The position numbers were made by a program. Shown here piece after piece: positions 1 to 3,000 of a stretch of 64,000 bases of DNA (positions are counted from its first letter, which is position 1; the number at the start of each line of letters is the position of its first letter). The stretch covers positions 9,982,001 to 10,046,000 of the forward strand of contig JANJGN010000023.1 in assembly GCA_026770705.1 (NCBI GenBank). The letters are read 5' to 3'. The DNA is from Isurus oxyrinchus (Eukaryota).

Positions 1-3000
1 GGGAAACTCCCTCACACTGTCTGCTTCTAAATGTCATCAGAGATTACTGATGAACTAGCAACCTTGTACAGAACTGCTTGCTTCACATCCTGCCTCTTTC
101 ACTGCTTCGTGCCAAACTGCATTTCAGAATGAAGCCACATCCTCTTGTATTCCGGAGGGATGTTTATTCTGTTGTGATTTCTTGGTCTGACTAAATAAGT
201 TCAAAACTTTAGACAGCGCCATGGAGACCAAACGCACCCAAACAAAATACACCGGATGCTGGAAATCTGAATAAAAGCCGAAAAAGAAGGAAATTCGCAG
301 CATCTATGAAGACAAAAACATGGATTCATTCAAGTCAACGAACTTTCATTCTGTTTACCGGCGGAGTATCCGCCCCGAGCCGCCGAACAATGCTGCAATG
401 TTCCGTGAGGATATGAGTCAGTGACATTCAGCAGTTCCTCACACACCAACATATTTAATCTGACGAGCGACTTCATCCTCCACTGAGCTGGCGCCCCTCC
501 TTGTGTTTGTGGTGAGAGCAGGAACTGCAGCTGTAGAGCAGAGCGGGATCAGCAATGCTGCCGGATCTGAGCGGAAACCTGCCCTGGTTTGTAAACCTCT
601 TGTGGACCATTGTGAGAAAGAAGGGAGATGGAAAGGCGGTTTCCTCTAATCCAGCTCTTGTGATCGATGGAGGCAGAAATAGCAACGTTAACATTAACAT
701 TCAGCAAGTTATTATTAAAATCCCTACAATGAAATATGTTTTGATAATCCAAATTATAACCATAAATCTGCTGATCAACCGGCAAACTCGTACAGAACTG
801 CCTGCTTCACAGCCTGACTCTTTCACTGACTCCTACCAAGCTGCATTTCAGAATGAAGCCACATCCTCTTGTATCCCGGCTGGCTGATTATTCTGTTGTA
901 TTTTATGGGTCTGTTTCCTGGGTGTCAGTTCTCTGTACTTCTGGGTGGTGATTTCCAGCCCTGCAACATGACTCAACTTAGCTACAGCAGCGGTTCCAGC
1001 TCCCAGCACGAACACAACCACAGAAGCAGCTCAGGAGAAGTGGGAGACTCTCCTTTAATCCATTTGATATGTTTCTGTGTGAGGAGCTGCTGAGTGTCGC
1101 TGACTCATATCCTCACTGAACATTGCAGCATTACTCGGCAGCTCGGCGCAGCTGAATTTACAGCCCCGGCCACGAACCGAGTCCAGAGAGAGTGAAATAT
1201 GTTTTGTGTGTTTCAGGCAATGACTCCTGGCCAGTCAGCAGCAGAGAGGCGGAGGTCGGTTCAGTGGGAAAAACGCTGCTTGGAGTTCTTACCGAAGCTT
1301 TGGTTGAGGAAAATTCCTCGTTTTATTTAACCTCAGTACTGAACTCTTCCTCAGAGCTGTTTCTGTTCATGCGGGGCGATTTTCATTTTGAAATCGGCTG
1401 GTTCAATCGCATCAAATCTTCATCTCGTCATCTTTTAAGCGGTGGCAGCGGCTGGAGAAAAAAAAAGACACAGATTTCACTCATTGCCTGTTCCTCTGAG
1501 ACCCCCGTCTTCACCGAAACTGAGAAATGTATTTTTTAGACGTCCGTCGGGAAAATGTGTTGTCCAAATCAAAAAGGACAGCATAATTTCTAAATTTTAG
1601 ACATTGCCATGGAGACGAGACGATCCCAAGAAAAATACACCGGATGTTGCAATTCTGAAATAAAACAGAAAATACGCAGCATCTATGAAAACTAAATGTT
1701 AGAATCTATCAGGTCAATGATCTTTTATTCTGTTCTTCGGCGCAATATCGGCCCCGAGACGCCGAACAATGCTGCAATGTTCAGTGTGGATATGAGTCAG
1801 TGACATTCAGCAGTTCCTCACACACCGACATATTTAAACTGAGGAGAGACTTCATCCTCCACTGAGCTGGCGCCCCTCCTTGTGTTTGTGGTGAGAGCTG
1901 GAACTGCAGCTGTAGAGCAGAGCGGGATCAGCAATGCTGCCGGATCTAAGCGGATACCTGTCCTGGTTTGTAAACCTCTTGTGGACCATTGTGAGAAAGA
2001 AGGGAGATGGAAAGGCGGTTTCCTCTAATCCAGCTCTTGTGATCGATGGAGGCAGAAATAGCAGCGTTAACATTAACATTCAGCAAGTTATCATTAAAAT
2101 CCCTACAATGAAATATGTTTTGATAACCCAAATTATAACCATAAATGTCATCAAAATCTGCTGATCAACCCGCAAACTCATACAGAACTGCCTTCTTCAC
2201 TTCCTGCCTCTTTCACTGACTTGTACCAAGCTGCATTTCAGAATGAAGCCACATCCTCTTGTATCCCGGCTAGCTGATTATTCTGTTGTATTTTATGGGT
2301 CTGTTTCCTGGGTGTCAGTTCTCTGTACATCTGGGTGGTGATTTCCAGCTCCGCAACATGACTCAACTTCGCTACAGCAGCGGTTCCAGGTCCCAGCACG
2401 AACACAACCACAGCAGCAGCACAGGAGAAGTGGGAGACTCTCCTTTAATCCATTTGATATGTTTCTGTGTGAGGAGCTGCTGAGTGTCGCTGACTCATAC
2501 CCTCACTGAACATTTGCAGCATTACTCGGCAGCTGGGCGCTGCTGAATTTACAGCCCCGGCCACGAACCGAGCCCAGAGAGAGTGAAATATGTTTTGTGT
2601 GTTTCAGGCAATGACTCCTGGCCAGTCAGCAGCAGAGAGGCGGAGGTCGGTTCAGTGGGAAAAACGCTGCTTGGAGTTCTTACCGAAACTTTGGTTGAGG
2701 AAAGTTCCTCGTTTTATTTAACCTCAGTACTGAACTCCTCCTCAGAGCTGTTTCTGTTCATGAGGCGCGATTTTCATTTTGAAATCGGCTGGTTCAATCG
2801 CATCAAATCTTCATCTCGTCACCGGTTAAGCGTTGGCAGCGGCTGGAGAAAAAAAAAGACACAAATTTCACTCATTACCTGTTCCTCTGAGACCCCCGTC
2901 TTCACCGAAACTGAGAAATGTATTTTTTAGACGTCCGTCGGGAAAATGTGTTGTCCAAATCAAAAAGGACACCATAATTTCTAAATTTTAGACATTGCCA

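What the first reader, a model, noticed from the sequence alone, without database searches (positions are those of the whole stretch)
375..1146. Every monomer carries a long inverted repeat: a potential dsRNA/hairpin-RNA array
Seen: 375-454 and the reverse complement of 1067-1146 match 71/80 with no gaps, and similarity extends to ~160 bp. The arrangement recurs in all A monomers and in degenerate form in B (e.g. ~3788-3865). Because the arms alternate in orientation along the array, each arm can pair with its left or right neighbour. Known: long intramolecular duplexes are Dicer (endo-siRNA/hpRNA) and ADAR substrates and promote recombination. Inference: a read-through transcript from either strand would fold into dozens of ~80-bp duplexes, so the array could be a small-RNA-producing locus rather than inert satellite.
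Basis: partly seen in the sequence, partly recalled or inferred. Interest (0 to 1): 0.72.

Follow-up and report, generated by a model that had tools for sequence, protein, structure and literature searches.

The report
Old inverted repeat inside a satellite
Every copy of this 1.39-kb tandem repeat carries the same old, decayed inverted duplication that could fold into a hairpin if transcribed, but it evolves like the rest of the repeat, so it looks inherited rather than maintained.

Summary
375-454 matches the reverse complement of 1067-1146 at 71/80. With gaps the repeat spans 372-536 against 982-1149 (128/164), far above shuffled monomers (score 128 against a maximum of 27).

The whole 64-kb window is one head-to-tail, non-coding array of period about 1388 bp. 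I cut it into 47 units of two types, A and B, with a higher-order period of about 6.9 kb. There are 47 left arms on + and 47 right arms on -. As RNA, either strand of one unit folds into a long hairpin in silico (z about -10).

- The arms are no more conserved than same-size windows elsewhere in the monomer (16th-58th percentile).
- Compensatory change does not exceed the shuffle controls.
- The right arm differs at 28/95 positions between A and B, while the left-arm consensus is identical. Complementarity drops from 77/95 to 71/95 and the inner block is absent in B.

Best reading: a relic inverted duplication fixed in the ancestral monomer and copied by amplification, as in known complex satellites with inversely oriented subunits. 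Transcription, small RNAs and editing could not be tested here. The organism is unknown.

The parts
1..64000 (+). One unidirectional tandem array, period about 1388 bp. I cut it into 47 units in the order AABAAAABAAAAABBBBABBABAABBAABABAABBABBBBABABABA, with a higher-order repeat of about 6927 bp.
   Evidence: Self-BLAST (1-1500 against 4167-5666 at 99.8% and against 11094-12593 at 99.67%); anchors and typing. TRF misses it because the period is above 500.
195..1582 (+). Reference A-type monomer (1388 bp).
372..536 (+). Left arm (L) of the inverted repeat; core 372-454, second block 484-536.
537..981 (+). 445-bp spacer ('loop') between the arms. It contains direct-repeat copy 771-913.
982..1149 (-). 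Right arm (R), an inverted copy of L; core 1067-1149.
195..762 (+). Block shared by A and B monomers. The A and B consensus sequences are 97-100% identical over about 375-674. It contains L.
2974..4360 (+). Reference B-type monomer. Its second half cannot be aligned with A except for the equivalent of 1060-1245.
3142..3236 (+). L core of the B monomer (inverted match 3151-3228).
3779..3873 (-). Degenerate R' arm of the B monomer (inverted match 3787-3864, 64/78). The inner block of the repeat is absent.
1205..1231 (+). 27-nt motif found once per unit in both A and B, 56 nt outside R. [quoted passage not shown]
   Evidence: 47 matches with up to 3 mismatches, 33 exact.
47..189 (+). Direct-repeat copy in the B tail, 84.6% identical to 771-913 of A.
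46951..47202 (.). Deletion unit in which R' (46951-47045) and a truncated L (47108-47202) lie only about 62 bp apart. A second such unit is at 52350-52601.

Best explanation
The window is a non-coding complex satellite: a 1.39-kb monomer in two variants that share a roughly 570-bp block, arranged in higher-order repeats. An ancestral monomer acquired an inverted duplication of about 165 bp. Tandem amplification then copied that arrangement into every unit. This is why 'every monomer carries it': the copies are not independent observations. Since then the two arms have drifted apart (about 11% in the core, about 22% overall). They behave like the surrounding satellite sequence, with no sign that complementarity is being kept. 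Shown here: the array, the repeat, its age relative to the A/B split, its neutral-looking evolution, and its capacity to fold in silico. Inferred: that no selection acts on the duplex, and that any dsRNA formed on transcription would be a by-product, as for other satellites with dyad symmetry.
For: (1) Array and non-coding nature. Self-BLAST and segmentation. No Rfam family at gathering score over 64 kb, nor at E<=1 over 1-4400. No tRNA. None of the 20 ORF translations has a Pfam match above noise; the best is E = 0.2. The only recurrent ORF (1156-1539) shows no codon periodicity (30/26/30), has synonymous:non-synonymous:stop counts of 24:60:3 against a neutral expectation of 0.23/0.72/0.05, and has no homologue among proteins of 69-223 residues, the only lengths that search covered.
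(2) The repeat predates the A/B split. It is present in both types, and A and B share homology through R and about 95 bp beyond it.
(3) The arms are not specially conserved. In 16 de-duplicated of 23 full-length A monomers, diversity is 0.064 for L, 0.052 for R, 0.072 for the loop and 0.060 for the right flank, against a monomer mean of 0.077. Among same-size windows the arms rank at the 16th-52nd percentile in A and the 28th-58th in B. Between the A and B consensus sequences, the non-arm stretch 537-674 is as conserved as L.
(4) No compensatory evolution. On 44 of 47 units (41 distinct rows), 3 core pairs change on both sides against 3.0 in shuffles (375/500 reach it). For all 164 pairs the figures are 6 against 7.7 (463/500). 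Among the 23 A monomers, no pair changes from one Watson-Crick pair to another.
(5) The L consensus is identical in A and B (95/95), while R_A and R_B share only 67/95. Arm complementarity falls from 77/95 to 71/95. About 17 B rows break many pairs with no change in L.
(6) Core mismatches show no strand bias: 3 give G-U on +, 3 give G-U on -, and 4 are transversions (read from the alignment).
(7) No trace of recombination between arms. All 47 L are on +, all 47 R on -, and no loop is inverted.
(8) Satellites with long intramonomeric inverted segments are a described kind (passages of PMC13081366).
Against: (a) R plus its outer flank (1060-1245) is the only part of the roughly 830-bp second half that still aligns between A and B. 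That could mean constraint, although the flank is at least as conserved as the arm.
(b) The core arms are somewhat below the mean diversity.
(c) Paired cells and the covariation score slightly exceed shuffles (21/500 and 27/500 for the core, 10/500 and 17/500 for all pairs). One pair (alignment columns 37/774) has 9 cells changed on both sides. The tool notes that relatedness alone gives such values.
(d) Power is low. The monomers are recent copies (91-100% alike), and a dsRNA, ADAR or Dicer substrate does not need perfect pairing, so absence of covariation does not exclude use of the duplex.
(e) Both A and B units fold far better than shuffles.
(f) Expression was not examined at all.
Confidence: 0.65

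Rival explanations
1. One reading: the array is a hairpin-RNA locus. Read-through transcripts fold into dozens of 80-165-bp imperfect duplexes that Dicer processes into siRNAs, that feed piRNA production, or that ADAR edits.
For: Strong predicted hairpins on both strands. The core duplex is -136.9 kcal/mol against a shuffled mean of -37.1, with a longest uninterrupted helix of 41 bp on + and 29 bp on -. The arrangement resembles tandem hpRNA clusters (passages of PMC10317233). Satellites and inverted repeats do give siRNAs in some organisms (PMC3447711). Hagfish tandem repeats with inverted repeats are reported as transcribed in testes (PMC9734144 abstract and discussion).
Against: The arms are only 74-81% (A) or 72-82% (B) complementary, whereas the documented siRNA-producing inverted repeats I read about are 99-100% identical or 'near perfect'. 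There is no arm-specific conservation and no covariation. The B type lost pairing without compensation. No homology of the arms to any coding family was found.
Confidence: 0.12
2. The arms are the terminal inverted repeats of a non-autonomous DNA transposon or foldback element (about 780 bp, 372-1149) that was captured in the ancestral monomer and amplified with it.
For: The inverted similarity has a sharp outer edge at 372/1149 and decays inward, as terminal inverted repeats do. Satellites derived from transposable elements and MITEs are described (PMC5932611, seen as search listing and abstract only; Scalvenzi and Pollet 2014, seen only in the reference list of PMC12054243).
Against: No target-site duplication is visible next to 372 and 1149 (read). 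No transposase or other domain appears in any ORF. Homology between A and B runs straight across the outer edge of R. Dispersed copies or empty sites could not be looked for.
Confidence: 0.15
3. The dyad symmetry acts at the DNA level, as a cruciform or other non-B structure that helps organise (peri)centromeric chromatin, as proposed for Tribolium satellites.
For: This is the same architecture as satellites for which that role has been proposed (PMC13081366 passages).
Against: The arms are 445 bp apart and 11-22% diverged. By my own recollection of the literature, not by any search, that disfavours cruciform extrusion. There is no arm-specific conservation and no array-level inversions in 64 kb. 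The chromosomal position is unknown. The cited authors themselves call the role unverified.
Confidence: 0.06

Closest known systems
Tribolium complex satellites with inversely oriented subunits: T. brevicornis 1061-bp satellite (about 470-bp inverted segments) and T. madens TmSat2 (704-bp monomer, about 300-bp imperfect inverted repeats). Source: passages of PMC13081366.
   Same: A long monomer in a head-to-tail array, non-coding, with one long imperfect inverted repeat inside each monomer and a predicted monomer-spanning hairpin whose function is unverified.
   Different: Here the arms are shorter (165 bp, core 83 bp), cover only about 24% of the monomer and are separated by 445 bp. There is no sequence relationship to the Tribolium satellites. 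No macro-dyad (array inversion) occurs in 64 kb. Here two monomer types share one arm-bearing block.
Trichogramma brassicae 385-bp satellite with 80-bp inverted repeats, as cited in PMC13081366. I did not read the original paper.
   Same: An inverted repeat of about 80 bp within each satellite monomer.
   Different: The monomer is 3.6 times shorter. I saw no details.
Hagfish germline-eliminated tandem repeats with internal inverted repeats: EEEb1, EEPs1 and EEEb4. Source: PMC9734144 abstract and discussion passages.
   Same: Tandem, ORF-less repeats from a vertebrate lineage, with an inverted repeat in the unit that is said to potentially form hairpins in single-stranded DNA or RNA. The abstract says all newly described classes except EEEb3, so EEEb4 included, are transcribed in testis.
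   Different: Unit lengths and sequences were not compared. Nothing here shows germline restriction or transcription.
Drosophila hpRNA loci, including the tandem hp-tHMG cluster of 13 hpRNAs in about 27 kb. Source: PMC10317233 passages.
   Same: Tandemly reiterated inverted repeats that would each fold into a hairpin.
   Different: hpRNA arms are near-perfect, derive from identifiable target genes and are defined by Dcr-2-dependent siRNAs. Here the arms are 74-81% complementary, no target is known and no small-RNA data exist.
Trypanosoma brucei siRNA-producing long inverted repeats and CIR147 satellite-like repeats. Source: PMC3447711 passages.
   Same: Inverted repeats and a satellite-like repeat as endogenous siRNA sources.
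   Different: Those inverted repeats are 422-10,011 bp at 99-100% identity, and CIR147 has a 147-bp unit.

Membership tests
Complex satellite DNA with intramonomeric inverted subunits | Head-to-tail tandem array of a long monomer with concerted evolution or higher-order repeats | tested here: met
   47 units of about 1388 bp fill the 64 kb. The higher-order repeat is about 6927 bp at 99.7-99.8%.
Complex satellite DNA with intramonomeric inverted subunits | Non-coding | tested here: met
   No Pfam match above noise for 20 ORFs. No codon periodicity and a neutral synonymous/non-synonymous ratio in the recurrent ORF. No homologue among proteins of 69-223 residues. No Rfam family or tRNA.
Complex satellite DNA with intramonomeric inverted subunits | A long inverted repeat within each monomer | tested here: met
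   44 of 47 units score 39 or more against a null maximum of 27-30. 47 + and 47 - core copies.
Complex satellite DNA with intramonomeric inverted subunits | High genomic abundance and heterochromatic or (peri)centromeric location | not testable with these tools
   Only this window is available; there is no source genome and no cytology.
hpRNA / endo-siRNA hairpin locus | Highly complementary (near-perfect) arms | tested here: not met
   128/164 overall; 73 Watson-Crick + 3 G-U of 83 in the core; 72-82% in B.
hpRNA / endo-siRNA hairpin locus | Both arms in one primary transcript | not testable with these tools
   No expression data.
hpRNA / endo-siRNA hairpin locus | Dicer-dependent 21-22-nt small RNAs from the duplex | not testable with these tools
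   No small-RNA data.
hpRNA / endo-siRNA hairpin locus | Arms homologous to a target gene or transposable element | tested here: inconclusive
   ORFs across the arms have no Pfam match. No search against the source genome or its genes was possible.
MITE / foldback transposon | Terminal inverted repeats with a defined outer end | tested here: inconclusive
   The outer edge at 372/1149 is sharp and similarity decays inward, but A/B homology continues beyond 1149.
MITE / foldback transposon | Target-site duplication flanking the element | tested here: not met
   The bases left of 372 and right of 1149 share no direct repeat (read). Decay since insertion could have erased one.
MITE / foldback transposon | Dispersed copies and empty sites elsewhere in the genome | not testable with these tools
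   No eukaryotic DNA collection was available.
ADAR-type inverted-repeat dsRNA substrate (works-like, not a family) | Intramolecular imperfect duplex of tens of bp | tested here: met
   In silico only: longest helix 41 bp (+) and 29 bp (-), core duplex -136.9 kcal/mol; folds.
ADAR-type inverted-repeat dsRNA substrate (works-like, not a family) | A-to-I editing in transcripts | not testable with these tools
   No RNA-seq.

The most novel reading that the evidence does not exclude
The array is transcribed, and each unit yields an imperfect 80-165-bp hairpin that feeds a small-RNA or editing pathway. One variant: the conserved 27-nt motif with a splice-acceptor look (1205-1231), followed by donor-like sites, marks a reiterated mini-exon, so that both arms of the next unit would sit together in one intron of a repetitive non-coding transcript. 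Nothing in the sequence excludes this. The arm decay, the lack of covariation and the uncompensated divergence in B make it unlikely that the duplex itself is the selected feature.
Probability: 0.1. Interest if true: 0.6.

Novelty: new member of a known kind. Interest (0 to 1): 0.25.

Why it matters
If the arms were shown to make dsRNA in vivo, this would be a large hairpin-generating satellite in a genome whose CpG depletion fits a methylating, possibly vertebrate, genome. It would then be a useful test case for how satellites feed silencing or editing pathways. As it stands, the value is cautionary. An inverted repeat seen 'in every monomer' of a tandem array is one ancestral event copied many times, not repeated evidence of function. 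Here the cheap sequence tests (arm against flank diversity, covariation, comparison of monomer subtypes) all come out neutral.

Tried and rejected
- Tandem Repeats Finder found nothing because the period exceeds 500. I used self-BLAST instead.
- Known RNA genes: Rfam at gathering score on the whole window and at E<=1 on 1-4400 gave 0 matches. ARAGORN found 0 genes.
- Coding or transposon origin: 20 ORF translations against Pfam gave nothing (only DUF6896 at E = 0.2, 12 bits against a cutoff of 27, which is noise).
- The ORF at 1156-1539 is open (93-165 aa) in every full A unit. I rejected it as a gene because of the neutral substitution pattern and because there was no hit among 9 candidates of 69-223 residues in the large protein collection. 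Longer and shorter candidates were not searched.
- Extension of the inverted homology beyond the arms: none.
- Own-arm against cross-monomer complementarity among A units: identical means of 70.43 Watson-Crick pairs of 83, so no co-adaptation.
- Literature: 4 full-text searches found analogues but nothing that identifies this repeat.
- Not attempted: searches of genome contigs (bacteria and archaea only) and of the phage, plasmid and E. coli collections, which cannot hold this sequence; translated searches of each arm frame against longer proteins; joining of the putative mini-exons.
The supplementary figures of PMC13081366 on predicted structures were not seen.

Full report
**What is in the window.** The 64,000 bases contain no N and are at 43-47% G+C throughout. 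Tandem Repeats Finder reports nothing because its longest period is 500. A self-BLAST of 1-1500 against the window gives 204 hits showing a head-to-tail array with a period of about 1388 bp.

Using 195-762 as an anchor, I cut the window into 47 units and typed them by their second halves. The order is AABAAAABAAAAABBBBABBABAABBAABABAABBABBBBABABABA. Forty units are full length (1360-1400 bp): 23 A and 17 B. Seven are rearranged or truncated (2171, 1554, 792, 1236, 609, 792 and 1178 bp) and were left out of the A and B alignments.

A higher-order repeat of about 6927 bp is visible: 1-1500 matches 4167-5666 at 99.8% and 11094-12593 at 99.67%. Within a type, monomers are 91-100% (A) or 89-100% (B) alike. 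The A and B consensus sequences are 97-100% identical over about 375-674 and 82-92% over 195-374. They cannot be aligned over most of the second half, and are about 70% identical again only over the equivalent of 1060-1245.

**The observation.**
- 375-454 against the reverse complement of 1067-1146 is 71/80.
- With gaps the inverted repeat runs 372-536 against 982-1149 at 128/164. It has an outer core of 83 bp (73 Watson-Crick + 3 G-U), a poor middle, and an inner block at 484-536.
- The inverted-alignment score is 128 against a shuffle maximum of 27 for an A unit, and 86 against 30 for a B unit.
- 44 of 47 units carry an inverted alignment scoring 39 or more. The two 792-bp units score 34 and a 609-bp fragment scores 14.
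- The core is found 47 times on + and 47 times on -, alternating in 89 of 93 adjacencies.

**Folding.** As RNA, 360-1160 folds into a monomer-spanning hairpin on either strand: -327.7 and -333.6 kcal/mol, z = -10.3 and -10.1, each from 20 shuffles. A B unit gives z = -7.65. The core duplex alone is -136.9 kcal/mol against -37.1 for shuffled arms, with a longest uninterrupted helix of 41 bp (+) or 29 bp (-). In a 2806-nt two-monomer fold each arm pairs with its own partner, although the neighbour is nearly as complementary (0.739 against 0.755).

**Is the pairing maintained?** The evidence below says no.
- *Conservation.* In 16 de-duplicated of 23 A monomers, diversity is 0.064 (L), 0.052 (R), 0.072 (loop) and 0.060 (right flank), against 0.077 for the whole monomer. 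Only 195-371 is markedly more variable, at 0.166. Against all same-size windows the arms fall at the 16th-52nd percentile in A and the 28th-58th in B.
- *Covariation, formal count.* On an alignment of 44 of the 47 units (the three short ones left out), 3 of the 83 core pairs change on both sides against 3.0 in shuffles (375/500 reach it). For all 164 pairs the figures are 6 against 7.7 (463/500).
- *Small excesses.* Paired cells exceed shuffles only marginally (85.2 against 85.0%, 21/500; 75.2 against 75.0%, 10/500), within what the tool says relatedness alone can produce. One pair (columns 37/774) has 9 double-changed cells. The same subfamily also carries a neighbouring change that breaks a pair (column 33).
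- *Covariation within A.* Among A monomers, no pair switches from one Watson-Crick pair to another. Mean complementarity to the unit's own arm and to other units' arms is the same.
- *The A/B contrast (the most telling result).* The L consensus is identical in A and B (95/95), while R_A and R_B share only 67/95. Complementarity falls from 77/95 to 71/95, and B lacks the inner block.
- *Strand bias.* The ten core mismatches of the reference unit split 3 G-U on +, 3 G-U on -, and 4 transversions, so there is no strand preference.

**What it is.** Nothing coding or structured-RNA-like was found.
- Rfam gives 0 matches at gathering score for the window and 0 at E<=1 for 1-4400.
- There are no tRNAs.
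- Twenty ORF translations have no Pfam match above noise.
- The recurrent ORF at 1156-1539 evolves neutrally (variable sites by codon phase 30/26/30; synonymous:non-synonymous:stop 24:60:3 against an expectation of 0.23/0.72/0.05). It has no homologue among proteins of 69-223 residues, the only lengths searched.
- CpG observed/expected is 0.69, with TpG and CpA in excess. This fits a methylating genome but does not identify it.

I conclude that this is a complex satellite whose ancestral monomer acquired an inverted duplication of about 165 bp. Amplification then spread it to every unit. The three-way distances (L to R_A 18/95, L to R_B 24/95, R_A to R_B 28/95) place the duplication at or before the A/B divergence. 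L lies on the shortest branch because it sits in the homogenised shared block.

**Rivals.**
- *Hairpin-RNA locus.* This cannot be excluded without expression data. However, the documented siRNA-producing inverted repeats I read about are 99-100% identical (PMC3447711, passages) or 'near perfect' and derived from target genes (PMC10317233, passages). These arms are 72-82% complementary and have no known target.
- *Transposon origin (terminal inverted repeats).* The sharp outer edge of the similarity suggests it. There is no target-site duplication and no transposase remnant, and dispersed copies could not be sought.
- *DNA-level dyad role.* This has been proposed for Tribolium satellites but is called unverified by those authors (PMC13081366, passages). 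Here there is no arm-specific conservation and no array inversion.

**Comparison with what is known.** Long intramonomeric dyad symmetry is described as 'not so common' but known. Examples are T. madens TmSat2 (704 bp, about 300-bp inverted segments), T. brevicornis (1061 bp, about 470 bp) and Trichogramma brassicae (385 bp, 80 bp) (PMC13081366). Hagfish eliminated repeats with inverted repeats are another example; most of the newly described classes are reported as transcribed in testis (PMC9734144, abstract and discussion). This array fits that kind, with shorter and more widely spaced arms and an A/B mosaic. I therefore rate it a new member of a known kind.

**Limits.**
- No eukaryotic DNA collection, expression data or paper supplements were available.
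- The organism is unidentified. Nothing led me to take it for human.
- I built no spliced model, and the putative mini-exons noted in passing were not joined or searched.
- Statements about spacer length and cruciform extrusion rest on my recollection, not on a call.

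Noticed in passing
1205-1231 and one copy per unit (47 sites, + strand): The 27-nt motif TGTGTGTTTCAGGCAATGACTCCTGGC is exact in 33 of 47 units and within 3 mismatches in all 47, in both A and B, although the surrounding second half is only about 70% alike or cannot be aligned between the types. It looks like a 3' splice site (tttcag|G). It is followed by a donor-like ggat|gtaagt in B and by ggag|gtNggt in A. Its function is unknown.
   Followed up: partly
46931-47722 and 52330-53121: In two 792-bp deletion units the degenerate R' arm and a truncated L arm are only about 62 bp apart (46951-47045 and 47108-47202), giving a much tighter inverted repeat. 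Its RNA fold is only modestly better than shuffles (-81.8 kcal/mol, z -2.26; 4 of 200 shuffles fold as well).
   Followed up: partly
47-189 and 771-913 (and equivalents): A 143-bp direct repeat (84.6%) lies just after the shared block in A units but just before it in B tails. At B-to-A junctions the shared block is therefore flanked by direct repeats. This points to a mosaic, rearranged history of the two monomer types.
   Followed up: no
1156-1539 and equivalents in A units: A stop-free frame of 93-165 codons persists in every full A unit, but it shows neutral substitution, no Pfam family and no homologue among proteins of 69-223 residues. I take it for a chance ORF propagated by amplification.
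   Followed up: yes
34880-37050; 45377-47722; 50485-53121: These are rearranged units: one of 2171 bp (an A unit plus part of a B unit, with two R arms in a row), one of 1554 bp, and a run of 1236, 609 and 792 bp. They are the only places where the L,R alternation breaks.
   Followed up: no
whole window: CpG observed/expected is 0.69, TpG 1.33 and CpA 1.22. Variant events are more frequent at CpG sites than elsewhere (0.43 against 0.30 per site) among A monomers. This is consistent with a methylated genome.
   Followed up: no
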